From Mobula hypostoma (lineage: Eukaryota): 64,000 bases of DNA. This document shows positions 15,946-63,219 of this stretch, piece after piece; position 1 is the stretch's first letter, and each line of letters starts with the position of its first letter. The stretch covers positions 19,470,001 to 19,534,000 of the forward strand of contig NC_086097.1 of NCBI RefSeq assembly GCF_963921235.1, read 5' to 3'. The notes under the pieces are model-generated. The model was not told the DNA's origin. It ran no database searches and worked only from the letters and a program-made list of their open reading frames with translations. Position numbers and translations under genes: made by a program.

Positions 15946-16304
15946 GTCCAGACACCCAAAGTTGGGAAGAAATTCCTGGAATTCCCAGTGGATCCCCTGA
16001 GCTCCATCGTGTTATTACTTGGGGAGCTCACCGTGCACTTGATTTCTGACATTTCCCTGACTTGGTGGCAGCCATGTGTCTTCGGAAGTACCTCATGCAC
16101 TGGGGAGTGCTCTGGGGTAAACAGGAAAGGACGCCCTGTGCTAATCTCTTCTACTTCTCTGTCTCTAGCTGGCCAGCCGCAACCGGGGACAAACCATCAG
16201 AAATCGTACAATCAGTAACACCAGCAGAAACTCATCTCCAAAACCTTCAAAGAGTGCCCAGCTGCTCATGATCAGTTTCATTTGATGAGAAACCAACACA
16301 AGAA

Positions 16305-16876
16305 GTATTATGTCAGTGAGGCTAAATGCAGGTTGGAAGAGCAACACCTCATGTTCCATCTGAGTAGTCTCCAACCTAATGGCATGAACATCGGTTTCTC
16401 TAACCTCTGATAACCACTTCTCTCTGTTCCCCCCTACACACCATACAGACACACATGCTCTTATTGTCTTTTCCCATTCTGGTAGCCCTCTCACCCCTTA
16501 TCTTCTCCTCCCCCACCTTCATCGCCTGCTCACCCTTCCTCTGGCTCCCCATCTCCTTCCTTTCACTCCGCTGTCCACTTCTATCAGATTCCTCCTTCTT
16601 CAACCCTTTACCTCTTCCACCTATCACCTCCCAGTTCCTCACATCATTTGCCATCCCTCCCCCACACACCTACCTCCCCCTTCACCTGGTGTCACCTATC
16701 ACCTGTATTCCTCCTCCTCCCCCCAACTTCTGCCATTTCTTTTCCAGTCCTGATGAAGAGTCTCGGCCCAAGACATCAACAGTATATTCCCCTCCATAAA
16801 TGCTGCCTGACCTACTGAGGAACTCAATAGGAAGAGCAGCATCGGTTGGAGTAACGGATTTGTCGATGTTTCAGGT
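16305..16876 (+). mobile_element. Penelope-like element 3' end: GIY-YIG C-terminus, UTR, degenerate hammerhead (16745-16782), short inverted stub
   Basis: EAKCRLEEQHLMFHLSSLQPNGMNIGFSNL* resembles the Penelope-like ORF terminus; followed by cagtcctgatgaagagtctcggccc. Confidence 0.85.
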
Positions 16877-18859: not shown

Positions 18860-20460
18860 AGCATATTGATATTAGGGGAGAGGAGGTGTTGGAGTTGTTA
18901 AAATACATTAGGATGGATAAGTCCCCGGGGCCTGATGGAATATTCCTCAGGCTGCTCCATGAGGCGAGTGAAGAGATTGCTGAACCTCTGGTTAAGATCT
19001 TTATGTCCTTCTTGTCCACGGGAATGGTACCGGAGGATTGGAGGGAGGCGAATGTTGTCCCCTTGTTCAAAAAAGGTAGTAGGGATAGTCCGGGTAATTA
19101 TAGACCAGTGAGCCTTACGTCTGTGGTGGGAAAGCTGTTGGAACAGATTCTTAGAGATAGGATCTATGGGCATTTAGAGAATCATGGTCTGATCAGGGAC
19201 AGTCAGCATGGCTTTGTGAAGGGCAGATCGTGTCTAACAAGCCTGATAGAGTTCTTTGAGGAGGTGACCAGGCATATAGATGAGGGTAGTGCAGTGGATG
19301 TGATCTACATGGATTTTAGTAAGGCATTTGACAAGGTTCCACACGGTGGGCTTACTCAGAAAGTCAGAATCCACCTGTCCAGGGAAGTTTGGCCAGGTGG
19401 ATGCAGAAATGGCTTGACTGCAGAAAGCAGAGGCTCATGGTGGAGGGAGTACATTCAGATTGGAGGGTTGTGACTAGTGGTGTCCCACAAGGATCTGTTC
19501 TGGGACCTCTACTTTTCGTGATTTTTATTAACGACCTGGATGTGGGGGTAGAAGGATGGGTTGGCAAGTTTGCAGATGACACAATGGTTGGTGGTGTTGT
19601 AGATAGTGTAGAGGATTGTCAAAGTTTGCAGAGAGACATTGATAGGATGCAGAAGTGGGCTGAGAAGTGGCAGATGGAGTTCAACCCGGAGAAGTGTGAG
19701 GTGGTACACTTTGGAAGGACAAACTCCAAGGTAGAGTACAAAGAAAATGGCAGGATACTTGGAAGTGTAGAGGAGCAGAGGGATCTGGGGGTACATGTCC
19801 ATAGATCCCTGAAAGTTGCCTCACAGGTAGATAGGGTAGTTAAGAAAGCTTATGGGGTGTTAGTTTTCATAAGTCAAGGGATAGAGTTTAAGAGCCGCGG
19901 AGTAATGGTGCAGCTTATAAAACTCTGGTTAGGCCACACTTGGAGCATTGTGTCCAGTTCTGGTCGCCTCACTATAGGAAGGATGTGGAAGCATTGGAAA
20001 GGGTACAGAGGAGATTTACCAGGATGCTGCCTGGTTTGGAGAGTATGCATTACGATCAGAGATTAAGGGAGCTAGGGCTTTACTCTTTGGAGAGAAGGAG
20101 GATGAGAGGAGACATGATAGAGGTGTACAAGATAATAAGAGGAATAGATAGAGTGGATAGCCAGCGCCTCTTCCCCAGGGCACCATTGCTCAATACAAGA
20201 GGACGTGGCTTTAAGGTAAAGTGTGGGAAGTTCAAGGGGGATATTAGAGGAAGGTTTTTTAATCAGAGAGTGGTTGGTGCGTGGAATGCACTGCCTGAGT
20301 CAGTGGTGGAGGCAGATACAATAGTGAAATTTAAGAGACTACTAGACAGGTATCTGGAGGAATTTAAGGTGGGGGGTTATATGGGAGGCAGGGTCTAAGA
20401 GTCGGCACAATTTTGTGGGCCGAAGGGCCTGTACTGTGCTGTACTGTTCTATGTTCTATA
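18860..20460 (+). mobile_element. CR1 LINE, 5'-truncated, near-complete RT with two frameshifts
   Basis: [72 protein letters not shown]1 3' end gggccgaagggcctgtactgtgctgtactgttctatgttcta. Confidence 0.95.
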
Positions 20461-23557: not shown

Positions 23558-24304
23558 AATCAAATCAAAATGAATTGGGCTCTTATCTCATTGCTTCCTT
23601 TCTATTTAATTGACTGTTGTACTTTTTTACAGTACTGTTAACAACAGTGAGAGTTTACTTTGTTTTTACCTCTGGAAATCCTTGGAGAGATTTCTCTGTC
23701 TCCCCTTCACAATCCACAATCACACTTGGACTTTTCCTGCCGCCTCACCCCCCACCCCCAGGCAGTGAGATTAGCTGCTTCAAAGTGAGATGGAAAGTAA
23801 TAGTGGGAATATCACAAAGAGAAAGATGAAAGAAAAAGTAATCAAGAGAGTTGGAAATTTTATCTTTGTAACATTTTTTAAAATTCTCTTAAATTTGCAA
23901 TTCTAAAAATATTTTAGCAAATGCCTTCTGGACATTCGAGCATTGATAGAGGTTCCTCCTCATTTTCAAGTTTAATGAAAAAAATATTACAGAGCAGTAG
24001 AAACCCATCTGATAGTTTACATCGTTACTAAGGGAAATTTTGTGACCAAGTCCCACACCAACGATTAATAGTAAAAATACAAGCCACTTTAGAGTCCTGG
24101 GTTCTGGGGAATGCTTCTTAACTGAAGGGACCTTGAGAAGGAACCTTGCCCAATCTCAGAAGGATTTGCAAAGTTGTAACATGGGAAACCCAGTGTCACA
24201 GAGTGAGACTCCACTATTTGTAATGAGATAATTGTTGTTCATGTTCACACAAACCAGTCTCCCTTCCATTGACTCTCTCTGCACCTCACACTGCCTCGAT
24301 AGAA

Positions 24305-24862
24305 CAGCCCATTCCCATTCCAACATGTTGGTCCACAGCTTCCTCTACTGCCATGATGAGGCCACCCCCAGGCTGGAGGAACAACACCTCATATTCGTCT
24401 GGGTAACCTCCCGCCTGGTAGCATTAACCTCAATGCCTCTAATTTCCAGTAATTTCTCCCACTGACCCTTCTCTCTGTTTCTATTCCTTACTCCAGCTTC
24501 ATTCTTATCCCTTCTCTTCTACACACCTGCCTATCACCTCCCTCTGGTGCCCCTCTTCCTTCCCTTTCTTCCATGGTCCACTCTCCTCTCCTTCCAGTTC
24601 TTCTTCTTCAGCCCTTTGCCTTTTCCACCTATCACCTCCCAGCATCTTACTTCATCCCCCTTCACCCGCTTACCCACCGTCATCTCACTTATCACTTGTC
24701 AGCATACAGTACTTCTCCTCCACCAGCTTCATATGCTGGCTTCTGCTCCCTTTCTTTTTAGTCCTGATGAAGGGTCTTGGCCCAAAGGGTCAACTGTTTA
24801 TTCCTCTCCATGGATGCTGCCCGGCCAGCTGAGTTCCTTCAGCTTGGTGTGTGTGTTGCTTT
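24305..24862 (+). mobile_element. Penelope-like element 3' end (GIY-YIG C-terminus, UTR, degenerate hammerhead 24760-24796)
   Basis: HSHSNMLVHSFLYCHDEATPRLEEQHLIF; agtcctgatgaagggtcttggcccaaagggtcaactg. Confidence 0.85.
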
Positions 24863-31965: not shown

Positions 31966-32619
31966 TATACACTTTGGTATTTAATGTTTCCATCCCAGGA
32001 AAAATAATTTTTTCTCTGTTAGAACATAGAACAAGAGAGGGCTATGTGGGAGGGAAGAGTCAGATTGATCTTAGAATAGGTTTAAAGGGTCAGCACAATA
32101 TTGGGGTTGAAAGACCTGTACTGTACTATTCTATGTTCTAACATATTGTATTGTGCAAAAGTCTTTGGGAAAAGAGGTGGGGGTGTGACACTGCTGATCA
32201 GAGATAGTTTCACGGCTGCAGAATAGGAAGAAATCATGGAGGGATTGTCTACTGAGTCTCTATGGGTGGAAGTTAGAAACAGGAAGGGGTCAATAATTGA
32301 GTGTTTTTTTATAGACTACCCAATAGTAACAGGGACACCAAGGAGCAGATAGGGAGACAGATTCTGGAAAGATGCAATAATAACAGAGTTGTCATGGTGG
32401 GAGATTTTAATTTCCCCAATATTGATTGGCATCTCCCTAGAGCAAGCGGCATAGATGGGGTGGAATTTGTTAGGTGTGTTCAGGAAGATTTCCTGACACA
32501 ATATGTAGATAAGGCTGTACTTGATCTGGTATTGAGAAATGAACCTGGTCAGATGTCAGGTCTCTCAGTGGGAGAGCATTTTGAAGATAATGATCACAAT
32601 CCTATCTCCTTTACCATAG

Positions 32620-32827
32620 ACAACAGAAATTCTGCAGATGCTGGAAATTCAAGCAACATACATCAAAGTTGCTGGTGAACGCAGCAGGCCAAGCAGCATA
32701 GGCGCAGTCGACGTTTCAGGCCGAGACCCTTCGTCCTGACGAAGGGTCTCGGCCTGAAACGTCGACTGCGCCTCTTCCTATAGATGCTGCTTGGCCTGCT
32801 GCGTTCACCAGCAACTTTGATGTTTGT
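32620..32827. mobile_element. Fold-back Penelope-like mini-element with 13-bp TSD
   Basis: TSD TCCTTTACCATAG at 32607-32619 and 32828-32840; near-perfect inverted arms centred at 32735-32737. Confidence 0.9.
32733..32766 (+). ncRNA. Minimal type I hammerhead ribozyme motif (intact core)
   Basis: gtc-CTGACGA-agggtctcggcct-GAAAC-GTC-gac. Confidence 0.8.
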
Positions 32828-32856
32828 TCCTTTACCATAGCATTGGAGAGGGATAG

Positions 32857-33758
32857 TGTCACGTACCCCGTGACGGGAATAAAGAAACAGCAGAATTAGA
32901 AAACACTTTGGAGTCCAGCATTGCTATAAACTAATAATATTTATTAGTAACTGCACAATACAGTAACATAAATGTAGATAAGTCAAACAGGTTAGCAATG
33001 ATTATATATATAAGTAAGTATATCAGTAAGTGTGGAAATATATGTATGGAAAACCAAGCATCTTTAAGTCTAGGGGTAAAAAGATCCAGTCTTACGATGA
33101 TGAGCAAAGTTCAGTTCAGTTCAGTTCGTGGTATTGAGTTGAGTAGTGATGGAGAGAGAGAGAGGGAGAGATTTAAGGCTTCAGGGGAGCTAACGCCATC
33201 GATGTTCTCGTTGTCCTTCGAAATCCTTTAAAAGTCACTGACTGTGACTTTAACAAAGGGGACTGGTTTTTCTGTGGTGGAGCTATCCCCCAGGCGAGGG
33301 TGGACACATGGACAACTCCCCACCAGTCAACCCTTTTCCTCTTTCCACTGCAAGAGCGATGGATCGATCCACCTGATCGATCCTCCAAACCCCACTTTTT
33401 CTGCGGGCACAACAATGCTCATTCAGTGTCCAAACATGTGTCTGAGGTCTGTATCATCTGACCTCCTATTTTATCTTCCTGTGCTGAGCATCAACTGTCA
33501 TTCAAATAATTCCTCCTTCCTCTCTCTGTGTAAGAAATGCAAGCAGGCAAAAAGTCCTTGAAAGGTGTCAACAACCTGCCTGCGGTCACCATAGCAACTT
33601 ATGAGCTGCTCGGTGCTGTCTCCAACTCCAGCAGAAATCCAAGAGTTAACCAGTTCCTTAAAGTGACAGTCCAACCGTTAATCTTCGTCTCGCTCTCTCT
33701 TTTACAAACAAGCTATCGGTGGTAAATAACTCTAGGGGTACCTCAGGATCCCCTCACA
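32857..33758. mobile_element. Solo LTR (902 bp, Gypsy-like) with 4-bp TSD ATAG
   Basis: TGTCAC...CTCACA; ATAG at 32853-32856 and 33759-33762. Removing it restores the CR1 sequence. Sister copy at 46203-47011. Confidence 0.88.
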
Positions 33759-36700
33759 ATAGGAACTGACAAGTTAGGAAAATATTTAATTGGAATAAGG
33801 GGAAATATGAAGCTATCAGGCAGGAACTTGGAAGCATAAATTGGGAATAGATGTTCTCAGGGAAATGTACAACAGAAATGTGGCAAATGTTCAGGGGATA
33901 TTTACATGGCATTCTACATAGGTACGTTCCAATGAGGCAGGGAAAGGATGGTAGGGTACAGGAACCGTGGTGTACAAAGGCTGTTGAAAATCTAGTCAAG
34001 AAGAAAAGAAAAGCTTACAAAAGGTACAAAAAACTAGGTAATGATAGAGATCTAGAAGATTATAAGGCTAGCTGGAAGGAGCTTAAGAAAGAAATTAGGA
34101 CAGCCAGATGAGGCCATGAGAAGGCCTTGGCGAGCAGGATAAAGGAAATCCCCAAGGCATTCTACAAGTATGTGAAGAGCAAGTGAGTGAATAGGACCAT
34201 TCAAGTGTGACAGTGGAAAAGTGTGTTTGGAACCAGAGGAAATAGCAGAGGTACTTAATGAATACTTTTCTTCAGTATTCACTATGGAAAAGGACCTTCC
34301 AATTTTAGGGATGACTTACAGCGGACTGAAAAGCTTGAACAATAGACGTTAAGAAAGCATCAAGTTGGATAAGTCACCGGGACCGGACGAGATATACCCT
34401 AGGCTACTGTGGGAGGCGAGGGAGGAGATTGCTGAGCCTCTGGCAATGATCTTTGAATCATCAATGGGGACAGGGAGGTTTCGGAGGATTAGAGGGTTGA
34501 AGATGTTGTTCCCTTATTCAAGAAAGGGAGTAGAGATAGCCCAGGAAATTATAGACCAGTGAGTCTTACTTCATTGGTTGGCAAGTTGATGGAGAAAATC
34601 CTAAGAGGGTGGATTTATGAACATTTGGAGAGGCATAATATGATTAGGAATAGTCAACATGGCTTTGTTAAAGGCAGGTCGTGCCTCACGAGCCTGATTG
34701 AATTTTTTGAGGATGTGACTGAACACATTGATGAAGGTAGAGCAGTAGATGTAGTGTATATGGATTTCAGCAAGGCATTTGATAATGTACCCATGCAAGC
34801 CTTTTTGAGAAAGTAAGGAGGCATGGGATCCAAAGGGACCTTGCTTTGTGGATCCAGAACTGGCTTGCCCACAGAAGGGAAAGAGTGGTTGTAGATGGAT
34901 TATATTCTGCATGGAGGTTCGTGACCAGTGGTGTGCCTCAGGGATCTGTTCTGGAACCCCTTCTCTTTGTGATTTTTATAAATAAACTGAATGAGGAAAT
35001 GGTGGGATAGGTTAATAAATTTGCTGATGACACAAAGGTTGGGGGTGTTGTGGATGGTGTAGAGGTCTGTCAGAGGTTACAGCGGGACATTGATAGGATG
35101 CAAAGCTGGGCTGAGAAGTGGCAGATGGAGTTCAACCCAGATAACTGTGAGGTGGTTCATTTGGTAGGTCAAATATGATGGCAGAATATAGTATTAATGG
35201 TAAGACTCTTGACAGAGTGGAGGATCAGAGGGATCTTGGGGTCCGAGTCCATAGGTCACTCAAAGCTGCTGCGTAGGTTGACTGTGTGGTTAAGAAGGCA
35301 TATGGTGCATTGGCCTTCATCAACTGTGGGATTGAGTTCAAGGGCCAAGAGGTAATGTTACAGCTATAGAGGACCCTGATCAGACCCCAGTTGGAGTACT
35401 GTGCTCAGTTCTGGTCACCTCACTACAGGAAGGATATGGAAACTATATAAAGGTGTAGAGGAGATTTAAAAGGATGTTGCCTGGATTGAGAAGTATGCCT
35501 TACAAGAATAGGTTGAGTGAACTTGGCATTTTTTCTTTGGAGCGATGGAGGATGAGAGGTGACCTGATAGAGGTGTATAAGATGATGAGAGACATTGATC
35601 ACGTGGACAGTCAGAGGCTTTTTCCCAGGGCTGAAATGGCTAACACAAGAGGGCACAGTTTTAAGTTGCTTGAAAGTAGGTACAGGGTGGGTGTCAGGGG
35701 TAAAATTTTTTGTGCAGAGAGTGGTGAGTGCGTGAAATGGACTGCTGGCAACGGTGGTGGAGGTGGATACGATAGGGTCTTTTAAGAGGTTCCTGGATAG
35801 ATACATGGAGCTTAGAAAAATAGAGGGCTATGGGTAACGCAAGGTAAGGACATGTTTGGCACAGCATTGTGGGCCGAAGGGCTTGTATTGTGTTGTAGGT
35901 TTTCTCTGTTTCTATATATATAGCTTTAAGATTTTTATACAGTACTGTACTTGTCAACATGGGGTGGAGAGCGAGTTTGTAAATCTGGCAGGAGCAACAG
36001 GTGTTGAGAATGGTGAAGGTGGAATGCCACTGGAGGGGTTTGGGACAGGCAGCAGAGAAGGAGTTCCAGGGACAAGGGTGACGTGAGTGAACACTACAGC
36101 CCACTTTGGCCCAATGTTGTCTGAACCAACTAACTAATAATCAAATGTCTAACTAAACTAGTCCCTTCTGCATATACAATGACCATATCCCTCCATTTCC
36201 TGTACATTTTTATTCCTATCTGAAAGCCTCTTAAATCCTTTATCATATTTGCCTCCACCACCACCCCTGGTAGTGCATTCCAGACACCCACCACACTTGC
36301 CCTGCACACCTCCTTTGAACTTTCCCCATCCCACCTTTTGTAGTTGTAACTGAACAAAACTCTGCAACTGGCTCTCCTCATCCTGCCCAACAGGGTCTCC
36401 TTATCTCTTTGCAGAGCAGTTGGTCACAAGACCAGGGCTTTGTCTGCACTGGTGATGGGGCAGCTCGCCTTAAAACCTGACGCATAGCCGTTCACAATAA
36501 CCACAATGGAAGTCTTTGCGTCAGGGTACAGGGGTGGATGTGGTGACCTTCCGCTGTTGCGACAAGGAAGCTTCGAGCTAATTACTGATGCGTGCTCACC
36601 TTTGCTCTAAGTTCCAGGTGGACCACTCAGCCACAGCTCATCCACAGAAATGGTCCCTACACTGAATCATCTGTGCAGAATAGAATTGATGGCAGTGAGT

Positions 36701-41115: not shown

Positions 41116-41865
41116 CCCCAGAATTCGACATTTTTAGTCTGAGGAAAAGACTGTCTACCCTATCATAATTGTATAAACTTCCATTATTTCCCTTCTCAGC
41201 TTTTGACGCTCCAGAAAAATCCACCTTAGTTTGTTCAACGCCTCCTTATTGCTCATACCTTCTAATCCAGGCAGCATCCTCATAAACCTCCAATGAAGAA
41301 GTACCAAAGCCTCCACATCCTTCCTCTAATGGGGCGGCCAGAATTGCACACAATACTCCAAGAGCAGCATAACCAAAGTTTAGTTCTGAGATCACCCATT
41401 TAGAAGCCGCGTACTGTAAGTGTTCATGCTAGAACTAGTGGTCATGGGTTAAGGGTGAAAGGTGAAATGTTTAAGGGGAACATGAGGGGGAACGTCTTCA
41501 CTCAGAAGGCAATGACAGTGTAGAACGAGCTGCCAGTGGTAGTGGATGCAGGTTTGATTTCAACATTGAAGAGAAGTTTGGATAGGTACCTGGAGGCTCA
41601 TAGGCCAATCGTGAGATGATGGGATTAGGCAGAATAACAGTTCAGAATGGACTAAAGGGGCTGAAGAACCTGTTTCTGTGTTGTAGTGTCCTATGACTCT
41701 AAGTGCTACAAAAACAATGTAGGGTGTTCTTGATGTGACAATTGCACTATGTTTCTACAAGGACTATTATTGTGGTCCCTTCCACCAATGTTATCTGCTA
41801 TGGATGATGCCAGGAGGGCTTGAGATAGACTTGATACATGTGACAAATAATCTAATCTAGTCTAA

Positions 41866-42250
41866 ATCCTGATGAAAGGTCTCAGCCCAAAACGGTGACT
41901 ATTTATTTCCCCCTGTAGATGCTACCTGACCGACTGTTCCACCAGCATTTTGGGTGTGTTGCTCTAGATTTCCAGCATCTGCAAACTTCTTTGGCTTCTA
42001 ATCTAGTGTACTGAAAAAGGAAAGCTCCTTGAGAAGGATGAATCACTTGTGGATAAATAAGGAAGTTAAAAATAGAATCAAATGGAAAGAAAATGCACAG
42101 AATAGAAGCACAAGACACTCTGCAGATGCTGGAAATCCAGAGCAACTCACAAAATCCTGGAGGAACTCAGCAGGTCAGGCAGCATCTATGGAAATGAGTA
42201 AACTGGGGATGTTTCAGGCTGAGACTCTTCACTAGGACTGGAAAAGAAGA
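41866..42250. mobile_element. Two Penelope-like terminal repeats, tail-to-tail (plus 41866-41990, minus 42110-42250), degenerate hammerheads
   Basis: tcctgatgaaaggtctcagcccaaaacg and gtttcaggctgagactcttcactaggactg. Confidence 0.75.
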
Positions 42251-43531
42251 AGAATGTTGTTGAGATTAATGGTGGGACAGAGGATTGGAAAACATTTAGA
42301 AACCAACAAACAATGACTCAGCAGGTCAGGTGGCTGTTTTTCCTCCCACGGATGTGGCTGACTTCTTGAGTGTTTCCAACATTTTCTGGGTTTTTTCCAC
42401 TTTAAAGCTCATGATCTCTTTGGCTGTCCAAATGCAGGATTTTCAGAATCATAACCAGGTTTAGTATCTCTACTGTCGTGATGCTACCTGAGGGTGGTGC
42501 TGGAGTCTTGGATCCTGGACAAGGTTTAATTGACACGGATTGTGGACTCTGTAGTTCATGTTATGATGTGTTTCTGGTTTCTGGTTGCTCCTTTTATGTT
42601 GCTATTCTGCGTAATTTTGATTGAGGTGGACTGACTCTGGGGCCTACAGTCAACGAACAACACAGGCTAGGTTAAGCTGAATTGAACAAAACTGGACATT
42701 CCTGGACTGTTTCGATGAATTTGTAGTTTGATGTTATATATTCCGTGTTTTCCGCTCTCATTTTTTTACCATTTGCATGATTTATTCTTTTTTTTATGCC
42801 TTTGGCGTTTGTTGATTTTCTTTGATTGGGTTCCACAGTATTTCTTAATATCATGACTGTCGGCAGAAAAATGAATCTCACTGCATTCATACTTTGATAA
42901 TAAATGTACTTTGAACCTTTGCGATTTGTTGTTTTGCAGCAGTATTGTGAAATACACAAAGATATTATGAATTACAATAAGAAATACCAATATATATAAA
43001 AGAAAATTAAATTAACGCAGAAAGAGAAGAAGAAGAGCACTTCTACAGTGAAGATTTCTCAAAGGACAGGTGTTGGTTAAGGAGTTAACTTACTTCACAT
43101 CTGATTCTTTTTTCCATGTCTAGTTGTGAAGAAGTAATGCAGCACATAATAAAATTGGATTGAATTCAAATTCAATTCCTAATCATCAGCATTGTTGCAG
43201 ATATGCTGAGAGCATCCCTTTATCTCCCGGCTCTTCCACTCTACTGTCTGCAGGTTTTTTGCTTGAAGAAAATATATTCCAGACAGTGAATAATTCAAGC
43301 AGTAGATCAGTACAGATTTGGAAAGCCAGACTTCTTTACAGCTGTGGTTTCAATGTGATAGGACAGCAGATGATGTCTCCAAATTGTTTCTTTGAGTACA
43401 TCGACATGAAGCACTGTCACAGGAGAGCAGCATCCACCAATGTCAACAATAGAGCTGGTCATTGACTTCAGGAGGGGTTCACATGCTCCTGTCTACATGA
43501 ACGGTTTTGAGGTTGAAAGATTCAAGCCATA

Positions 43532-43695
43532 GACACAAGAGATTCTGCAGATGCTCGAAATCCAGAATAACACACGAAAAACTGAGCAGAACAGACAGCA
43601 TCTATGGAAAAAAGTAAGCAGTCGACGTCTCAGGTCGAGTCTTGATGCAGGGTCTTGGCCCAAAATGTCGACTGTTTATTCCTCTCCATAGATGT
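43532..43695. mobile_element. Older fold-back Penelope-like mini-element
   Basis: catctatgga..cagtcgacgtctcagg | tcttgatgcagggtcttggcccaaaatgtcgactg..ccatagatg (inverted arms). Confidence 0.7.
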
Positions 43696-43892
43696 GAGTG
43701 TTACCGAGAGCCCCAGGTCCCCAAGAGTGCACATCACCGGCAGTAAGTCCTAGTCCATCTATGAAGATGCCAGGGCCAAGATGGCACACCAACACCTCTA
43801 CTTCCTCAGAAGGCTAAGGAAATTTGGCATGTCCCCGTTGACCTTCACCAGTTTTTATTGATGCCCCATCCTATCTGGATGCATAACAGCTT

Positions 43893-44045
43893 AGACAACA
43901 CACATCAAAGTTGCTGGTGAACGCAGCTGGCCAGGCAGCATCTCTAGGAAGAGGTACAGTCGACGTTTCAGGACGAGACCCTTAGTCCAACACAACTTTG
44001 ATGTGTGTTGCTTGAATTTCCAGCATCTGCAGAATTCCTCTTGTT
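43893..44045. mobile_element. Fold-back Penelope-like mini-element with 13-bp TSD
   Basis: TSD TGCATAACAGCTT at 43880-43892 and 44046-44058; arms caacacacatcaaagttg / caactttgatgtgtgttg. Inserted in a Rex1/L2-like LINE (about 43440-44540). Confidence 0.88.
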
Positions 44046-44586
44046 TGCATAACAGCTTGGTTTGTTAACCGTCCTGGACACGACCACAAGAAACTGCAGA
44101 GAGCTGTCATCACATCACAGAAATCCGCTTCTCCTCTATGAACTCTGGCTTTACTTCTCACTGGCTCAGTAAAGCAGCCAGCATAATCAAAGGCCCACCC
44201 ACCCTGGACATCCTCCCTTCTCCCCTCTCCCATCAAACAAAAGATACAGAAGCCTGAAAGCATGTACTGTTCGGCTAAAGGTCGGCTTCTGTCCCACTGC
44301 TATCAGACTCCTGAAAGCATCTCTTGTGCAGCAAGCTGGGCTCCTGGCCTCACAATGTACCTCACTGTGAAGTTGCACTATTGTTGACTTACACTTCACT
44401 TTCTCTGTAGCTTTCACACTTTATTCTGCATTGTTGCTGTCTTAGCTTAATGCACGATGTAATGGGTTTGATCTGTATGAACAATATGCAAGACAAGCTT
44501 TTCACTGTATCTTGGTGTACGTGACGATAATAAACCAGTACCACAACTGAAGACAGGATGATTATTTATATTACACTCACGAATAT

Positions 44587-44795
44587 TGGCCAGGACATGA
44601 GGGGATCATGTCCTAATCCTCCGTAGAGCACTGTGATCCTTGTTCACCAACCCGGTGGAGCAGATAAGGATTTGTTTTAAAGTTTGACCCAAGGCACTCC
44701 CTCGGCACAGGACTAAAGTGCCATAGAATCGTGACTTAAATTCTCTGAATACACTCTGAATGCAGAGCCCGTAACTCAAGAGGCAAGATGGTCAA
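44587..44795 (-). mobile_element. Ancient Deu-domain-like SINE (SacSINE1/AmnSINE type), highly diverged
   Basis: ggccaggaca...gcactccctcggcacaggactaaagtg...actcaagaggcaag resembles the reverse complement of the DeuSINE body. Recalled from memory, not aligned. Confidence 0.45.
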
Positions 44796-44999
44796 ATCAA
44801 TCGTGAAATGTGCAAAGGGCATTGAAGGGAGGTAACAGGTCACAGATAGGAAACAGCATTACCAGGAGGAGAGAGGATTTTTGGATTTTTCTTTTCCATA
44901 TCACATAATCTGTTGATAAAGATCTTCAAACTTTCAGTAATGGACCACATTCCTAGCATAAAAGCACTGTAATGACATGAATGTTTGATGTGATAACTG

Positions 45000-46319
45000 C
45001 TGAACAGAGCCTACTCCCGTCTGGATAAGCAAGCAGCACTGTGGGAATCGTGTTTTTTGACTTCTCAAGTACCATACAGCCCTCATTGCTGGGGGAGAAG
45101 CTCCATTCAATGCAGGTTGGCAATTCCATTGTATCCTGGATAATGGACCACCTGACTGGCAGACCACAGTTTGTGCGGCTTCAGGGCTGTGTGTCAGACA
45201 TGCTGCAAGCAGCACTGGGGCCCCACAGGGGACGGTATTGGCTCCCTTCCTGTTTACCCCATTTACCTCAGAGTTTAGATACAACACTGAGTCATGTCAT
45301 CTTCAGAAATTCTCTGTTGACTCAGCAATAGTTGGGTGTATCAAGGAGGAACAGGACGATGAACACAGGGCCCTGGGGACTTTGTCAAATGATGCAAGCT
45401 GAATCATCTGCAGCTCAACATCAGTAAGACAAAGGAGATGGTGATGGACTTTAGGAAGTTAAGCCAGCGTTGCTCCCTGTTACTATTGATGGTGAGGAAG
45501 TGGATGTGATGAGGACCTACAAGTACCTGAGAGTGCACATGGACAACAGATTGGAGTGGAGCACCAACACAGGAGCTGTGTACAAGAAAGGCCAGAATTA
45601 CCTCTGCTTTCTGAGGAGACTGAGGTCCTTTGGAGTATGCAGTCCTCTCCTTCACATGTTCTACCAATCTTTTGTTGACACTACAATCTTCTATGGGGTG
45701 GTGTGCTAGGGAAATGGTGTCAACAAGATAGATGCCAACAGGCTCAATAAACTGATTAGGACGGTTGGGTCTGTTATAGGAGTTGAAGTGGACACACTGG
45801 AGGCTGTATGAGAACAAAGAAAATCTTAGCAATTCTGGACAATGTTTCTCACCCTCTGCATACCACCTTGGCTGAACAGAGGAGCACTTTGACTAAGACA
45901 GCTGTGCTGCTCCAAAGAGCGATATATGAGGTCATTCTTACCCTCAGCCATTAGGCTCTATAATGAGTCAACCTACAACCGGAGAAATGATGACCCCTCC
46001 TGTTAGACTGTTGTTAACCTCTGTTTACCAGAGCTCTGTTTAGCTCTGTTTACCACACCCTACTATCACGAATACCCTGTTCAATACTGTGCAATAAAAC
46101 CATCACTTCTTATCTGGACAGCGTGAATGTGCATCCGTTGCTATATAATATTACGGTAATTCTTGATTTACCATCTTATCAGTGTGAACTTGGAAACCTC
46201 AAAGTGTGGAAATATATGTATGAAAAACCAAGCTTCCTTAAGTCTAGGGGTAAAAAGATACAGTCTTACGATGATGAGTAAAGTTCAGTTCAGTTGAGTT
46301 TGTGGTATTGAGTTGAGTA

Positions 46320-46359
<40 letters not shown>

Positions 46360-47130
46360 AGTCTTCAGGTGAGCTGACACCATCGATCTTCTCGTTGTCC
46401 TTCGAAATCCTTTAAAAGTCACCGACTGTGACTTTAACAAAGGGGACCGGTTTTCTGTGGTGGAGCTATCCCCCAGGTGAGGGTGGACACATGGACAACT
46501 CCCCACCAGTCAACCCTTTTCATCATTCCACTGCAAGAGCGATGGATTGATCCGCCTGATCGATCCTCCAAAACCTACTTTTCCTGCAGGCACAACAATG
46601 CTCATTCAGTGTCCAGAACATGGGTCTGAGGTCTATATCATCTGACCTCCTATTTTATCTTCCCATACTGAGCATCAATTGTCACTCAAATAACTCCTCC
46701 TTCCTCCCTCTGTGAAGAAATGCAAGCAGGCAAAAAGTCCTTGAAGAAGTATCAACAACCTGCCAAAAATCATAACATCAATTGTCCATTTAATAACACC
46801 GTTGGTCACCACAGCAACTTACGAGCTGCTCACTGCTATCTCCACTTCAGCAGAAATCCAACAGTTAACCAGTTCTTTCTCATTCCTTAAAGTGACAGTC
46901 CCACAGTTAGTCTTCATCTCTCTCTCTCTTTTACAAACAAGTCAGTGTTAAATAACTCTCTCTCTCTTTTCAAAACAACAGTTCATAGGGGTAATTCAGG
47001 ATCCCATCACAAAGGTAACTTATTTTTTTATTCTTCTTACTTTTCTTCTAATATTTGTACATCTGTGAATTTGTAATGCTACTGTGACACTGTAATTTCC
47101 TTTGGAATCAATAAAGTATCTATTTATACT
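45000..47130 (+). mobile_element. Rex1/Babar-like LINE 3' part, interrupted at about 46012-47011
   Basis: FFDFSSTIQP..WIMDHLTGRPQFV, YKYLRVHMDNRLEWS; the 3' UTR resumes at 47012 (aggtaactt..tttggaatcaataaagtatctat). Confidence 0.85.
46203..47011. mobile_element. Truncated copy of the 32857-33758 LTR
   Basis: Highly similar from aagtgtggaaatatatgtatg to caggatcccatcaca. Confidence 0.9.
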
Positions 47131-47185
47131 GTTGGACCTCCAAAGAACGAACAGGCATAAGAGTCTGGCTTGAATGTGGCTAGCA

Positions 47186-47448
47186 CCAATGGATTCAACA
47201 AATGGAGACACCAATCATTCACCAAAAGGATCTAAGCCTTGGTGACACCCATCATTCACCCAATGGATCCAACCCCTGGTGACACCCATCATCAGTCACC
47301 CAATGGATCCAACCCCTGGTGACACCCATCATTCACCCAATAGATCCAACACCTGGTGACACCCATCATTCACCAAAAGGATCTAAGCCTTGGTGACACC
47401 CATCAGTCACCCAATGGATCCAACCCCTGGTGATACCCATCATTCACT
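47186..47448. repeat. Minisatellite, 37-bp unit, about 7 copies
   Basis: TGGTGACACCCATCATTCACCCAATGGATCCAACCCC, alternating with a variant ending CAAAAGGATCTAAGCCT. Confidence 0.92.
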
Positions 47449-47736
47449 AGTTGAGGGGTAAGGGCAGAAGCCGGACAGTTTTTCAAAGTTCCACCGAACC
47501 TCCTTCCTGTTGTGTTTCTGAGATTCTCGTTTCCTCCATCCACCCACCCTCTTACAACTCCCTCTCTCTGTATCAGCACTCATCCCATTCCCTCAATTCT
47601 TCACCCCAGTTCTTACCCCATCCTTAAAATTCCTGTCCCTTAGCCTCAGCTCTTCGACAGGAGATGGGAAACTTTCCCACTTCTTCCCTCCCATATTCCA
47701 CCTGAGCATACTGTCCATATGCAACATGAGCAAAAA

Positions 47737-47812
47737 CACTCACTGGCCACTTTATTAGATACACCTGTACACCTACTCGTTATTGCAAATATCTAATTAG
47801 TCAACTGTGTGA
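47737..47812 (+). mobile_element. Tc1-like TIR fragment
   Basis: cactcactggccactttattagatacacctg resembles fish Tc1 termini (CACTCACCGGCCACTTTATTAGGTACAC). Confidence 0.65.
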
Positions 47813-48001
47813 TACACTACATTCATGCACTCAGTATTATTTATTTATTGTTATTATTAATTGTTTTTGTTTTTATTGTTTTGGGACAATTTGGCTACTT
47901 TTGCACATTGCTTGTTCGTCCATCTTTCTTTCTGTGTAGATTTCCATTGATTCTATTGTATTTCTTTGCTCTACTGTGAATGCCTGCAAGAAAATGAATC
48001 T

Positions 48002-48239
48002 CACATCAAAGTTACTGGTGAACGCAGCAGTCCAGGCAGCATCTACTGGAAGAGGTACAGTCAACGTTTCTGATTAATCTCTTACTATCTCTTCTTTCAG
48101 TTAGTCCTGACGAAGGGTCTCGGCCTGAAACGTCGACTGTAGCTCTTCCTAGAGATGCTGCCTGGCCTGCTGCGTTCACCAGCAACTCTTATGTGTGTTG
48201 CTTGAAATTCCAGCATCTGCAGATTTCCTCCTGTTTGCG
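48002..48239 (+). mobile_element. Penelope-like mini-element with inverted 5' arm and 13-bp TSD
   Basis: TSD AGAAAATGAATCT at 47989-48001 and 48240-48252; inverted arm 48002-48070. Confidence 0.9.
48103..48138 (+). ncRNA. Minimal type I hammerhead ribozyme motif (intact core)
   Basis: agtc-CTGACGA-agggtctcggcct-GAAAC-GTC-gact. Confidence 0.85.
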
Positions 48240-48507
48240 AGAAAATGAATCTGATATGTTGACATACATGTATTTTGATAACAGATTTACTTTGAACGTT
48301 GACATTGTGAAGAAAAGCTCTGTAGGCCTCTATATTGCCGCACGTTGTCCTCGGTGATTCAGTACAGTTGAGGACTGGTTATTGAGAGCGAATGCTCGTA
48401 GGTGCCTGGAGGTCACATAGTTCTTCCAAAGCACCATCTTTTCAACCACCCTCCTGCCTCTTCTCACAGAACTTACGGCACAAAAGAAGACTCAATCAGA
48501 TAACTAT

Positions 48508-49135
48508 AAACACAAGATTCTGCAAAGCTCGGTTAACACACCCAAAATGCTGGAGGAACCCAGCAGGTCAGGGAGCGTCCCTGAATAAACAGTCAGTGTT
48601 TCAAGCCGTGCCCAGAACTGGAAAGGAAGGATGCAGAAGCCAGAATAAGAAGGTGGGGAGAGGAGAAGAAGTAAAAGAAGGTGAGGGGAAAGACAGGCTG
48701 ATGGGTAACAGGGGTTGAAGTGATAATTTAGGAGGTGATAGTCCCCATTCAGTCTCCACTCTCACCCCTTCTCTTGTCCTCACCTGCCTTTCACCTCCCT
48801 CTGGTTCTCCTCCTCTTTCTCTTTCTCCCATGGTCCACTCTCCCCTCCTATCAGATTTCTTCTTCTTCAGCCCTTTATCTTTTCCACAAATCACCACCCA
48901 GCTTCTTACTTCATCCTGCTCTCCCCCACCCACCAAACTTCCCCCTCATCTGGACTCATCTATCACCCACCAGCTTGTAGTCCTTCACCCTCACCTCACC
49001 TCCTTATTCTGGCCTGTTCCCCCTTCCTTTCCGGTCCTAATGAAGCATCTCAGCCCAAAACGTCGACTGTTTTATTCTTCTCCATAGACACCGCCTGACG
49101 TGCTGAGTTCCTCCATCATTGTGTGTGTGAGTGTT
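48508..49135. mobile_element. Older inverted pair of Penelope-like ends
   Basis: Minus arm 48508-48720; plus arm 48740-49135 with ggtcctaatgaagcatctcagcccaaaacgtcgactg. Confidence 0.75.
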
Positions 49136-49687
49136 GCAGAGTTGCACCACGTGTATGCAGGAGAAAACCCCCTTTTGTGTGGAACAGAGCCAGAGCCAGC
49201 CACAGAGAGAATCAGAGTGACTAACGGTGGATGGTGTCCACTGACACAATTAATCATATTGAACTGCCGGACCCTATCAGCACTGCCAGCCTCTTGGGAT
49301 TGTAATCTTGAAAATAGATCCAAGCTGCAATCTGAAATGGAATCACTTGCTAATTTAGCTTCCACAGTTTAAGCTATTGGAATTGCTTATCGGGTTTCCC
49401 CATGTGCTGGGCTATCATGATAGCTAGGGTGTACAAACTTTGCCACATCACAAAAAATGAAACCTTCTCCTTTATTATTACACTGGGATTGTAAACTTTG
49501 AAGACCACACCTGCAGGTTCCTATGAGGGCACATTCAATTCTCTGTACCTTTTTATCATCAAGTGCGTTTGTGAGTGTGTGTATGTTTGTTTCAGTTTGT
49601 GTGTACGCATGTACTGTACAGTATACATGTGAGTGTGTGCGTATGTGTGTACTTTAGTGTGTGTGTGAAAAAAGGCAGACTATTCTA

Positions 49688-49980
49688 TACACAAGAGATT
49701 CAGCAGGTGTTGGAAATCCAGAGTAACACACTCAAAATGTTGGTGGAACTCAGCAGGTCAGGCAGCATCTATGAAAAGGAATAGGGAGTCAACGTTTTGG
49801 GCCAAGACCCTTCATCTGGACTGCTCTAGGTAACACACACAAAATGCTGGAGGAACTCAGCAGGCCAGGCACCATCTATGGAAAAAAGTACAGTCGACAT
49901 TTTGGCCTGAAACCCTTCAGCAGGACTGAAGAAATAAAGCTGAGGAGTAGATTTGAAAGGTTGGGGTGGGGGGGGGAAGG
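49688..49980 (-). mobile_element. Tandem direct pair of Penelope-like terminal repeats with two degenerate hammerheads
   Basis: agtcaacgttttgggccaagacccttcatctggactg (49787-49823) and cagtcgacattttggcctgaaacccttcagcaggactg (49891-49928). Confidence 0.8.
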
Positions 49981-50069
49981 CATTTAGATCATATTTGTTT
50001 GAGATTGTTAAATTTACAGCAGTGTGATAGATTGGTCCCAGACGAGTACAGATAGAGTAAGTCTCTGGC

Positions 50070-50645
50070 TCAGATGGTTTTTGATTGGTTATGGCTAAAT
50101 TCAGGTCAGATTGGGTTTGGCTGTGGTTAGGTTTGGATCAAGGTGGGGTTGTCCGTGGATTCATGTCAGGTTTTGATTGGTAGTGGTTGGGTTGGTTTGA
50201 GATGAAATTGACTATGGTTGGATGCAGATATGGTTGGGATTGATTGTGGTTAGGTTTGGCTGAGTTGGGATTGGCTGTAATTGGGTTTAGGTGGAGGCTT
50301 GGATTGGCCTTGGTTGGGCTTGGGTCAAGTTGGGATTGGCCATGATTGGTTTCACGTCAGGTTTGGATTGGTTGTGGTTGGGCTTGGGTCAAGTTGGGAT
50401 TGGCTATGATTGGTTTCAGGTCAGGTTTGGATTGGTTGTGGTGGGACTTGGGCCAAGTTGGGATTGGCCATGATCGGTTTCAGGTCAGGTTTGGAGTGGT
50501 TGTGGTTGGGCTCATGTAAGGTTTAGATTGGTTGTGGGTGGGCTTAGGTCAAGTTGGGATTGGCCATGATTGGTTTCAGGTCAGGTTTTGAATGGTTGTG
50601 GTTGGGCTCATGTGAGGTTAGGATTGGCTGTGGTTGAATTCAGGA
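50070..50645. repeat. GT-rich minisatellite, 32-bp subunits forming a 64-bp higher-order unit
   Basis: tgggtcaagttgggattggc recurs at 50321, 50385 and 50449. Confidence 0.85.
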
Positions 50646-57769: not shown

Positions 57770-58535
57770 CATCATTAATCAGGGTATGAGTGCAGGTCTT
57801 GGGCCGTTATGTTGCAGTTGTGTAAGTCATTGGTGAGACAGTGTTTGGAGTACTGTGTACGGTTTTGGTCACACTGTTACAGGAAAGAAGTGGTTAAATT
57901 AGAAAGGGTGCAGAAGAGATTTACAAGGATGTTTCCAGGATCAGAGTTATAGGGAGAGATTGGCCAAGCCAGATCTGACGAAGGGTCTTGGCTTGAAACG
58001 TCGACTGTACTTCTTCCTAGAGATGCTGCCTAGCCTGCTGCGCTCACCAGCAACTTTGATGTATGTTGCCAGATCTTTATGTGCTGTGTTTTCCTCTTGG
58101 TCCCAGAGGAATGTTGTTTCATTTTGTTGTATACATGTGTACGGCTGAATGACAATAAACTTTAACTTGAATTTGAACTTTATTCCTTGGAATGTAGGAG
58201 AATGAGGGGGCGACCTTAAGGAAAAGTTTAAAATTATGAGGGGCATAGTTAAGGTGGAAGTAGCAGTCTTTTCCCCAGGGTGGGGGAATCCATAACAAGG
58301 GGGCATTGACTTACTTTTTCAAACAGAAGATGGTGAGGACATGGAATGAGAAGCCAGATGAAGTGGTTGAGATAGATACAACAATATCATTTAAGCACTT
58401 GAATATGTTCAGGGAGGGGCCTGAAGGGATGTATGCCATTTGCACAACATTGGGATAATCTATGTGGATGTGGTCAGCAGGACTAGTGGGGCCGAAGGGC
58501 CTGTGTCCATGCTACATTGTTCCATGACTCTAATT
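57770..58535 (+). mobile_element. Decayed CR1 3' part with nested insertions
   Basis: ttggagtactgtgtacggttttggtcac, agggtgcagaagagatttacaaggatg, gggccgaagggcctgt. Confidence 0.75.
57975..58067 (+). mobile_element. About 91-bp Penelope-like insertion starting at the hammerhead core, 9-bp TSD
   Basis: GCCAGATCT at 57968-57976 and 58068-58076; CTGACGA-agggtcttggctt-GAAAC-GTC-gactg. Confidence 0.8.
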
Positions 58536-59029: not shown

Positions 59030-59235
59030 TACTGATGCCAGCATCTGGAGCAACAGCCAAACTGCTGGAGGAACGCAGCAGGTCAGGCAGCGTCTGTGGG
59101 AGGCAGGGGGATGGTTATCATCTCGGGTTGAGACCCTGCATCACGGTCTTGACCGAAAAAGAGGACCATCCCTCCTGCCTCCACAGATACAATCTGACCC
59201 GTTGAGTTCTTCCTGCAGTTTGGTTGTTGCTTCAT
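59030..59235. mobile_element. Older fold-back Penelope-like mini-element (different subfamily)
   Basis: gcaacagccaaactgctggaggaac..gaggcagggggatggt / accatccctcctgcctc..gcagtttggttgttgc. Confidence 0.75.
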
Positions 59236-59334
59236 TAGTTCAAAGTTTTAAGTGAATTTATCAAAATAGGTATTGTATATGTTCACAACACGCTGGAGGA
59301 ACTCAGCAGGTCGGGCAGCATCCGTGGAAAAGAT

Positions 59335-59372
59335 CGATCGACGTTTCGGGCTGGAACCCTTCGTCAGGACTG
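59335..59372 (-). ncRNA. Minimal type I hammerhead ribozyme motif (intact core)
   Basis: Reverse complement cagtc-CTGACGA-agggttccagccc-GAAAC-GTC-gatcg. Confidence 0.8.
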
Positions 59373-59887
59373 TAGAGGGAAGGGCCAGAGGCCCTATAAA
59401 GAAGGTGGGGGGAGGGTGGGAAGGAGAAGGCTGGTAGGTTCCAGGTGAAAAACCAGTAGGGGGAAAGATAAAGGGGTGGGGGAGGGGAAGCAGGGAGGGG
59501 ATAGGCAGGAAAGGTGAAGAAGGAATAGGGGAAAGCACAATGCGTAGTAGAAGGAAGCGGAACCATGAGGGAGGTAGTAAGCAGCTAGGGTAGTCTCCAG
59601 TCCCTTGGTATGAACATTGAATTCTCCAACTTCCAGTAATTCCCTCCCCCTATCCCAGTTTCACTCTGCCCCCTCCCCCAGCTGCCTATCACTTCCCTCA
59701 TGGTTCCACCTCTTACCCATTGTGCTTTCCCCTGTTCCTTCTTCACCTTTCCTGCCTACCCCCTCCCTGCTTCCCCTCCCCCACCCCTTGATCTCTCCCC
59801 TTACTGGTTTTTCACCTGGAACCTACCAGCCTTCTCCTTCCCTCCCTCCCCCCACCTTCTTTATAGGGCCTCTCCCCCCTCCCTCTT

Positions 59888-59925
59888 CAGTCCTGACGAA
59901 GGGTTCCAGCCCGAAACGTTGACCG
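59888..59925 (+). ncRNA. Minimal type I hammerhead ribozyme motif (intact core, GUU site)
   Basis: cagtc-CTGACGA-agggttccagccc-GAAAC-GTT-gaccg. Confidence 0.8.
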
Positions 59926-60264
59926 TTCGTTTCCACGGATGCTGCCCCACTTGCTGAGTTCCTCCAGCATGTTGTGAGTGTTGCTTTGACCCCAGCATCT
60001 GCAGAGTATTTTGTGTTTACTGTATATGTTACCATATACTACCCTGAGATTCATTTTCATGCAGGCATTCTCAGTCGAATCAAAGAAACTCAATGAAATC
60101 AGTGGAAAACTACACACAAAGACTGACAAAGAGCCAATGTGCAAGAGAAGACAGACTAACTCAATCAATCAATCAATCAATTGATAATATTGAGAATATG
60201 GATTGAAGCTGAGTCCATAGGTTGTGGATTCAATTCTGTTTTCAGTGTTCAGTTCAGTGTTAAT

Positions 60265-61632: not shown

Positions 61633-62346
61633 TACTGTCTGGGAGGAAATAGCAATACTGAGAACCACTCTCAACATTATAGCTTCTTTCCCTATACTGT
61701 CAGATTTCTCAATGGTCCATGAACCCATCAACAATACCTCACTATCCTCTTTTACACTAGGTATTTATTTATTGTAACATTATCACTTTTTGTTTTCAAG
61801 TAGACTGCTGACACAAAACAAGAAAAATCACAATGTCAGTGATGATAAACCCGATTCTGATTCAAGAGATGGGGCTAAGGTACACTGGCAATAATAGAAA
61901 CATAAGGTGGTCCTGTGGTTCTCCAGTACCTGTGGAGAATTCATCACTTTGCCACCAAAGATGTTCTTCAATGTATAACGCAGGAATCAGGGTGGCTAGG
62001 AGGATTCAGCACTGTCTCCAAAGAGCAAGGCAACAACATCCAAATGGCCCAGTTTTTGTTGGACAAATTAGTGTTTTTACTGGTTCAATTGACTGCCAAT
62101 CAACAGAAACCGAACCAACAGCCAAACCTCTTCGACCAGCACAGTAGGTAACTAAGAAAGGTGGTGAATGGACTTCATTTTGGTTTTTGACAAGGTCGCA
62201 CATGGTAGACTGCTCCAGAAGGTGAAGGTACAAGCGACCTAAAGCATTCTGGCAAATTGGATCCAAAGTGGGCTTCATGATAGGAGTAGAGCATAGAAGT
62301 AGTCATGGTATTGGTACTGGTTTACAATTGTCACATGTTAATCATA

Positions 62347-62825
62347 AACACAAGAAAATATGCAGATGCTGAAAATCTAAAGTAACACACACAAAATGCT
62401 GCAGGAACTCAGCAGGTCAGGTAGTGTCCATGGAAATTATTCAGCTATAGAAAAGAATAATCAGTTGACATTTCAATCTGAGACCCTTCTTCAGAACTGG
62501 AAAGGAAGCGGGTAGATACCAGAGTAAAAAGTTTGGGGGGAAGGGGAGGAGGATAGCTGAAAGGTGGTAGGTGAAGTCAGGTGGGTAGGGAAGGTAAGGG
62601 GCTGGAGAGGAAGGAATCTGATAGGAAACGAGTGGACCATTGGAGAAAGGGAAGGAGGAGGGGATCCAGGAGGAGGTGATAGGCAGAAGAGAAGAGGTCA
62701 GAGTGGGGAAAAGGAGAAGAGGGGAGGAAGAGGATTTTTTTTTCTCTTTTTGCGGAAGGAGAAATTGATATCCACGCCATTAGGTTGGAGGCTACCCAGA
62801 TGGAATATAAGATTTTGCTTATATT
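62347..62825 (-). mobile_element. Penelope-like element 3' end with degenerate hammerhead (62462-62500)
   Basis: Reverse complement encodes QNLIFHLGSLQPNGVDINF; purine-rich UTR on the plus strand; cagttgacatttcaatctgagacccttcttcagaactg. Confidence 0.8.
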
Positions 62826-63219
62826 CTTTCCGGGTAGCATATTGTCTGCATATTGTCATAGGTACCAAGATGCAATAAAAACCCTGTCTTGTATACTGTT
62901 CATACCAACCAAATCATTACACAGTGCATCGAGGCAGAACAAGGTAAAACAATAACAATGCAGAATAAAGTATAACAGCTACAGAGAAAGTGCAGTAACC
63001 AATAAAGTTCAAGGAGAAATTGTGAGGTCAGGAGTCCATATTATCCTACATAGACCATTTAATAGTATTTTTAACAGTGGGGTAGAAGCTGCCCTTGACC
63101 CTGGTGGTATGTTCCTCCAGGCTTTTGTATCTTCTACACAATGGAAAAGAGAATGTCTGGGGTGGTGGGGTCTTTGATTATGTTGGCTGCTTTAATGAGA
63201 AAGCTAGACATATCAGAAC

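What the first reader, a model, noticed from the sequence alone, without database searches (positions are those of the whole stretch)
43880..48252. Young subfamily with a stereotyped 13-bp TSD and shared 'inverted arm plus about 40-nt tail' design
Seen in sequence: inserts at 32620, 43893 and 48002 share the diagnostic caaagttgctggtgaacgcagc (one mismatch at 48002). All three have perfect 13-bp TSDs (TCCTTTACCATAG, TGCATAACAGCTT, AGAAAATGAATCT). In each, one arm stops at about cacatcaaag while the other continues about 40 nt (gcttgaa(a/t)ttccagcatctgcaga..gtt). Inference: a fixed-stagger endonuclease cut plus a defined second priming site, a mechanistic signature of this Penelope-like family.
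Basis: partly seen in the sequence, partly recalled or inferred. Interest (0 to 1): 0.7.

Follow-up and report, generated by a model that had tools for sequence, protein, structure and literature searches.

The report
Penelope two-armed stubs, 13-base duplications
These three small mirror-image inserts are stumps of a Penelope-like jumping gene in a layout already described for that class (one arm with a short tail, one without), likely made when both cut DNA ends start copying the element's RNA; their 13-base target duplications look like a favoured length rather than a fixed one.

Summary
Observation confirmed. The three inserts (32620-32827, 43893-44045, 48002-48239) carry the diagnostic and perfect 13-bp target duplications, with one tailed and one tail-less outward-facing arm. 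They are 5'-truncated ends of an endonuclease-bearing Penelope-like element (PLE): the arms hold a minimal hammerhead, and older relatives in the window carry a GIY-YIG C-terminus whose full-length homologues are Neptune/Nematis-type. The inverted copy plus 30-40-nt tail is the published PLE layout, and two reverse-transcription start sites were shown in vitro in 2024. Contigs of public runs also end in two clusters, at the tail and tail-less sites. 'Fixed 13' is not established. An older solo copy has 11 or 14. Junction microhomology blurs the lengths, and both end points wobble by 5-8 nt. One older two-armed insert does read 13 (one mismatch), so 13 is likely the mode. No genome was available for the distribution. 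This scan has noted the same design many times elsewhere in this genome, with 11-17-bp duplications (unchecked notes). Known kind; low interest.

The parts
32607..32619 (+). Insert 1 left target-site duplication (13 bp)
   Evidence: host frame restored on excision by coordinates
32620..32735 (-). Insert 1 tailed arm (tail about 32620-32650; 10-nt internal deletion; 5' end inside the hammerhead core)
32736..32827 (+). Insert 1 tail-less arm, starting at the hammerhead core; shares 3 private substitutions with the tailed arm
32828..32840 (+). Insert 1 right target-site duplication; first base could be element-derived (12-13 bp)
43880..43892 (+). Insert 2 left target-site duplication (13 bp)
43893..43988 (-). 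Insert 2 tail-less arm (96 nt); reaches further 5' than its tailed partner
43989..44045 (+). Insert 2 short tailed arm, preceded by about 4 unaligned junction bases
44046..44058 (+). Insert 2 right target-site duplication; first 3 bases also match the element's tail (10-13 bp)
47989..48001 (+). Insert 3 left target-site duplication (13 bp)
48002..48070 (-). Insert 3 tail-less arm (69 nt)
48071..48239 (+). Insert 3 tailed arm with complete minimal hammerhead (core at 48107, stem I 5 pairs) and about 30 nt of upstream pyrimidine-rich sequence
48240..48252 (+). Insert 3 right target-site duplication; abuts an 8-nt gap relative to a paralogous host repeat, so the original length may have been more than 13
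57968..58076 (+). Insert 4: solo tail-less arm of the same subfamily (57977-58067) with a 9-bp duplication and 2-nt microhomology at both ends
59271..60030 (.). Older-subfamily two-armed insert (59284-60017): tail-less left arm, tailed right arm carrying the last codons of the endonuclease; 13-bp duplication with 1 mismatch (10 perfect)
41851..42010 (+). Older solo tailed arm with a duplication of 11 bp perfect or 14 bp with 1 mismatch
16282..16820 (+). Older 5'-truncated copy: endonuclease C-terminal codons (about 16309-16407), pyrimidine-rich 3' region, hammerhead-bearing arm; like remnants at 24283-24862 (+) and 62345-62850 (-)

Best explanation
The inserts are 5'-truncated, head-to-head pairs of the 3' end of an endonuclease-bearing Penelope-like retrotransposon, each likely built anew at insertion when both 3' ends of a staggered cut, usually about 13 bases apart, prime reverse transcription, one at the tail site and one at a site 32-44 bases further in. 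Shown: the duplications, the outward-facing 3' ends, two end clusters, different centres in each insert, the hammerhead motif, and the link of older relatives to a GIY-YIG C-terminus. Inferred: both nicks prime; the enzyme acts as a dimer whose geometry favours a 13-nt stagger; the two cDNAs are joined at their truncated ends by microhomology; one-armed copies arise when only one end primes and the other is trimmed or joined, giving other duplication lengths. The 13 is read as a mode with spread, not a constant.
For: Geometry: a duplication-forming cut leaves a 3' overhang on each side, and extending both gives an antisense left arm and a sense right arm with 3' ends outward, as in all three inserts. 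Either arm can reach further 5' (tail-less arm in insert 2, tailed arm in insert 3), so neither is a copy of the other. The tail-less end also occurs alone (insert 4). In contigs of public runs laid on 32590-32698, long loose ends with diverse flanks cluster at 32620/32625 (161 and 47 records in X1; 144 at 32620 in X5) and at 32651/32652 (65 and 59 in X1; 51 and 52 in X5); only the 6 best rows per run were shown, 264 hidden. The tail-less ends fall in the loop or 3' stem of a predicted local hairpin (weak, z -1.5 to -1.8). In vitro, the anole PLE protein cuts and extends both strands, starts at two RNA sites bounding the tail, and is predicted to be a dimer (PMC11167929). Two-armed inserts with a readable duplication: 4 of 7 examined, all reading 13, one with a mismatch supported by a host paralogue.
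Against: No genome was held, so there is no length distribution. Solo copies read 9 and 11 or 14. Microhomology or an adjacent gap makes the three named lengths 12-13, 10-13 and 13 or more. Three equal lengths arise with probability 0.03-0.09 under narrow but not fixed distributions, and the window was flagged for that coincidence among thousands. 3 of 7 two-armed candidates had no recognisable duplication (old copies, ends set by eye). Insert 1's near-perfect palindromic centre and 3 shared private substitutions also fit fold-back copying or later arm-to-arm conversion. The in vitro paper saw no strand difference in start site, so it does not explain why the arms pair one tailed with one tail-less. 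The endonuclease remnants sit on older subfamilies; the young subfamily's own partner was not found. The tail-less cluster was not among the shown rows for X9 and X13.
Confidence: 0.68

Rival explanations
1. One reading: an invariant 13-bp stagger specific to this subfamily.
For: 3 of 3 young two-armed inserts read a perfect 13; an older two-armed insert reads 13 with one mismatch.
Against: Same-subfamily solo copy reads 9; true lengths are blurred; the older insert shows 13 is not subfamily-specific; earlier unchecked notes list 11-15, 11-16, 13-17 and 14 bp in this genome; PMC8557442 describes PLE duplications as variable and PMC3846280 reports 8, 9 and 10 bp.
Confidence: 0.15
2. One priming event, then fold-back self-priming (or copying of an antisense template), with the endonuclease resolving the intermediate at the tail boundary, as proposed in earlier descriptive papers.
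For: Insert 1 has a 2-nt centre between 100% complementary stems and arms that share 3 private substitutions; PMC3846280 argues for self-priming from junction palindromes; PMC8557442 attributes the tail to endonuclease-mediated resolution.
Against: In insert 2 the tail-less arm holds about 78 nt missing from the tailed arm, and inserts 2 and 3 have no palindromic centre; solo copies end at the tail-less site; two start sites exist in vitro.
Confidence: 0.2
3. A separate non-autonomous hairpin element (MITE-like, DIRS-like or retrozyme) that moves as a unit.
For: Short, non-coding, inverted arms with a hammerhead motif and clean duplications.
Against: All three centres and arm lengths differ; termini are not conserved inverted repeats; homologous arms continue into PLE endonuclease codons in older copies.
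Confidence: 0.04

Closest known systems
Canonical insertion unit of endonuclease-bearing Penelope-like elements (Craig et al. 2021, PMC8557442; passages read)
   Same: 5'-truncation, adjacent inverted 5'-truncated copy, 30-40-bp tail at one end, hammerhead in the pseudo-LTR, C-terminal GIY-YIG domain; full-length homologues have the CX2-5CxxC linker of Neptune/Nematis.
   Different: Here only the terminal 50-170 nt are left. The paper calls duplications variable in length; here 4 of 4 readable two-armed inserts give 13.
Adineta vaga Pen2/Pen2a/Pen3a insertions (Arkhipova et al. 2013, PMC3846280; passages read)
   Same: Inverted pseudo-LTR, 31-bp tail on one inverted arm, target duplication around the whole unit, palindromic junctions.
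   Different: Duplications of 8-10 bp; rotifer elements of another lineage; interpreted there as self-priming.
Poseidon element of the green anole, PAc (Frangieh et al. 2024, PMC11167929; parts 1-3 of 4 of the text read; supplements searched)
   Same: Two internal start sites bounding the tail, start window about 8 nt wide in a stem-loop downstream of the hammerhead, both strands cut and extended.
   Different: Poseidon clade; start region AC-rich there, GU-rich here; the text read reports no nick spacing, duplication length or tailed/tail-less pairing.
Minimal type I hammerheads of metazoan PLEs (Cervera and de la Pena 2014, PMC4209133; passages read)
   Same: Core motif with no real helix III and a palindromic 2-nt link.
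   Different: Activity not tested here; arm 5' ends lie upstream of the expected cleavage position.
L1 twin priming (recalled; not read here)
   Same: Both target ends prime, giving an inversion inside one duplication.
   Different: In L1 the second primer copies a different, upstream part of the RNA; here both arms copy overlapping sequence from two set 3' sites.

Membership tests
EN+ Penelope-like element insertion | Hammerhead motif in the terminal repeat | tested here: met
   Own descriptor (core motif recalled) hit 8 sites in the window: 6 in PLE arms (32736, 48107, 57975, 59367, 59893, 62494) and 2 without a paired stem I or proper link. Rfam scan gave no hammerhead hit.
EN+ Penelope-like element insertion | Inverted 5'-truncated copy adjoining head-to-head | tested here: met
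EN+ Penelope-like element insertion | 30-40-nt tail at one end only | tested here: met
   32-44 nt in 3 of 3; two end clusters in contigs of runs X1 and X5
EN+ Penelope-like element insertion | Target-site duplication | tested here: met
EN+ Penelope-like element insertion | Linked ORF with RT and C-terminal GIY-YIG endonuclease | tested here: inconclusive
   Older copies carry C-terminal codons matching P0001 and its homologues. 5 of 8 long homologues scanned have both RVT_1 and GIY-YIG hits, several below the curated cut-off. No ORF is attached to the young inserts themselves.
Neptune/Nematis clade | CX2-5CxxC linker upstream of GIY-YIG | tested here: inconclusive
   Present in all 4 homologues viewed (definition), but that region is not in the window; no RT tree was built.
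DNA transposon (MITE) or DIRS | Conserved terminal inverted repeats and a shared internal structure among copies | tested here: not met
   Ends asymmetric and variable, centres all different
Non-LTR retrozyme | Tandem direct monomers with hammerheads | tested here: not met
   Arms are inverted, single and truncated; definition from bioRxiv 10.64898/2026.07.22.740005 (listing and passages)
Fixed-stagger integrase-like cutter | Invariant duplication length genome-wide | not testable with these tools
   No genome; window gives 13, 13, 13, 13 (1 mismatch), 9, 11 or 14

The most novel reading that the evidence does not exclude
Two-armed insertions record a concerted double cut by a PLE dimer with a sharp 13-nt stagger, in which the two subunits are assigned asymmetrically to the two RNA start sites, while one-armed insertions have variable duplications because the unprimed end is processed. 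This would replace the view that PLE duplication length is set by a variable late second nick, and would give a spacing that a structure of the RT-endonuclease dimer must match.
Probability: 0.35. Interest if true: 0.5.

Novelty: new member of a known kind. Interest (0 to 1): 0.25.

Why it matters
The PLE transposition cycle after the first priming step is still unexplained in print (PMC8557442, PMC11167929). A very abundant, lineage-restricted subfamily gives many natural end products in which nick spacing and start-site pairing can be counted. The three inserts here add only a handful of data points to a known layout; the value lies in the genome-wide count that could not be run.

Tried and rejected
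Collection scans for more copies with flanks: viral contigs 0; metagenome contigs 0, then 6 loci whose matches are only 18-22 nt, judged chance; prokaryote genomes 0. Rfam: 6 matches, all below gathering score, no hammerhead family. Laying four runs on 16 kb was swamped by repeats and showed no empty-site joint among the 15 joints listed (21,871 hidden); no conclusion. No RNA holder listed. Contig depths were not used as copy numbers. tblastn of 13 PLE proteins against the window found only C-terminal endonuclease remnants and one weak unrelated hit, no autonomous copy. Duplication search on 18 candidate inserts found 9 or more perfect bases in 6; the other 12 (old copies, ends set by eye) gave nothing beyond chance. 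RNA folds of tailed arms were not clearly better than shuffles except the one spanning insert 1's palindrome. Literature searches listed no paper giving a duplication-length distribution by insertion architecture or applying twin priming to PLEs; most hits were seen only as listings, the library lacks most subscription papers, PMC522041 was not held, bioRxiv supplements are closed, and figures were not visible.
Full report
Observation. The diagnostic 22-mer matches six places in the window and none in 100 shuffles. These belong to four inserts. The three named ones, 32620-32827, 43893-44045 and 48002-48239, are each flanked by a perfect 13-bp direct repeat. None of 400 random position pairs searched with the same slack reached 13. 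Removing insert plus one repeat by coordinates restores an open host retroposon frame across the junction at inserts 1 and 2, and insert 3's empty site aligns to a paralogous host repeat. The duplications are real. The finding's span joins inserts 2 and 3, which are separate events with 3.9 kb of unrelated DNA between them.

Anatomy. Each insert has an antisense left arm and a sense right arm of the same sequence, with 3' ends facing out and truncated 5' ends meeting at a centre that differs in every case. One arm carries a tail, the other stops earlier. In the seven-arm alignment the tail-less ends fall at columns 101-109 and the tailed ends at 140-145, so both wobble, and the difference per insert is 32-44 nt. 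The tail is on the left in insert 1 and on the right in inserts 2 and 3. The arms hold a minimal hammerhead motif (core recalled, architecture as in PMC4209133 passages). Rfam did not find it.

What it is. Older relatives of the arm are scattered through the window. Four are preceded by the last codons of an endonuclease. A profile of three remnants found P0001, E 1.7e-9, with a weak GIY-YIG hit (E 2.3e-4, below the cut-off). Its homologues include 600-900-residue proteins; 5 of 8 scanned have both RT and GIY-YIG hits, and the four viewed have the linker that marks Neptune/Nematis. So the arms are the 3' end of an endonuclease-bearing PLE. No ORF is attached to the young inserts and no autonomous copy lies in the window. 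The host looks like a cartilaginous fish; 'ray' comes from earlier scan notes and was not tested.

Two end sites beyond the window. No genome was held and collection scans gave no usable copies. Laying contigs of four public runs on insert 1's tailed arm, long loose ends with low agreement cluster at the tail end (32620: 161 records in X1, 144 in X5; 32625: 47 in X1) and at the tail-less end (32651 and 32652: 65 and 59 in X1, 51 and 52 in X5). Only six rows per run were shown and 264 were hidden, and alignment edges shift such positions by a few bases, so this shows two clusters, not their widths. X1 may be the window's own source. For X9 and X13 only tail-end rows were shown. In X13 cover over the diagnostic falls to about 50 against about a million over the tail, so the subfamily is lineage-restricted, which fits 'young'.

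Is 13 fixed? For: of 7 two-armed candidates in the window, 4 have a readable duplication and all read 13. The fourth is an older-subfamily insert, 59284-60017, with one mismatch; a host paralogue supports the full length. The visible lengths are also blurred. Insert 2's first three duplicated bases match the element's tail (10-13), insert 1's first base does (12-13), and insert 3's right copy abuts an 8-nt gap in the host repeat (13 or more). Three equal lengths have probability 0.03 under a uniform 11-16 range and 0.09 under a peak with SD 1, and the window was flagged for this coincidence among 2,290 noted windows. Only the older insert is an independent test. Earlier unchecked notes on this genome report 11-15, 11-16, 13-17, 14 and 9 bp. 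Best reading: a mode near 13 with spread.

Mechanism. A cut that yields a duplication leaves a 3' overhang on each side; extending both on the element RNA gives exactly the observed orientation (inference from the sequence). Fold-back copying of one cDNA is the main rival, and insert 1 fits it: a 2-nt centre and three private substitutions shared by both arms. But in insert 2 the tail-less arm holds about 78 nt that the tailed arm lacks, in insert 3 the reverse holds, and the tail-less end also occurs alone (insert 4). So each arm was likely copied from RNA. Insert 1's shared variants then suggest one template or later conversion; insert 3's arms share none and differ at about 9 of 69 sites, which is uninformative.

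Comparison with print. PMC8557442 describes the adjacent inverted 5'-truncated copy and the 30-40-bp tail at one end as typical, and calls duplication length variable (passages). PMC3846280 shows the layout with a 31-bp tail and 8-10-bp duplications (passages). PMC2377424 notes the 34-37-bp repeat in Drosophila (passages) and PMC8969392 lists the features for curators (passages). PMC11167929 shows in vitro cutting and extension of both strands and two start sites that bound the tail (parts 1-3 of 4 read; three supplementary files had none of five search terms). The 'defined second priming site' is therefore known. I found no paper on duplication length by architecture or on twin priming in PLEs in seven searches, within a library that lacks most subscription papers.

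Verdict. A real, correctly described set of inserts of a known kind. The design is class-wide and published, and this scan has noted it repeatedly in this genome. What stays open is whether two-armed inserts have a sharp 13-nt stagger from a concerted dimer cut (probability about 0.35, interest 0.5 if true). Overall interest 0.25.

Noticed in passing
window 32736, 43988, 57975, 41865: Arm 5' ends cluster at the upstream edge of the hammerhead core (both arms of insert 1, tail-less arm of insert 2, insert 4, the older solo), about 27 nt before the expected cleavage position; earlier scan notes report the same.
   Followed up: partly
window 49686-49985: Two older arms in direct tandem on the minus strand, a tail-less one followed by a tailed one; no duplication found.
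   Followed up: partly
window 43530-43697, 48510-49135, 59030-59235: Three older inverted pairs that by eye also have one tailed and one tail-less arm; duplications no longer recognisable.
   Followed up: partly
window 32841-33760 and 46200-46960: Two copies of a roughly 760-nt repeat (85% identical); the first starts about 11 nt right of insert 1's duplication, inside the same host retroposon fragment, and contigs of all four runs skip about 906 nt there.
   Followed up: no
window 47186-47447: Short tandem array with a unit of about 35-39 nt and higher-order repeats.
   Followed up: no
window 50079-50644: Degenerate tandem repeat region seen in the self-comparison.
   Followed up: no
window 18862-20398 and 11747-12457: Long frames that look like decayed LINE reverse-transcriptase fragments (family resemblance recalled, not tested).
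   Followed up: no
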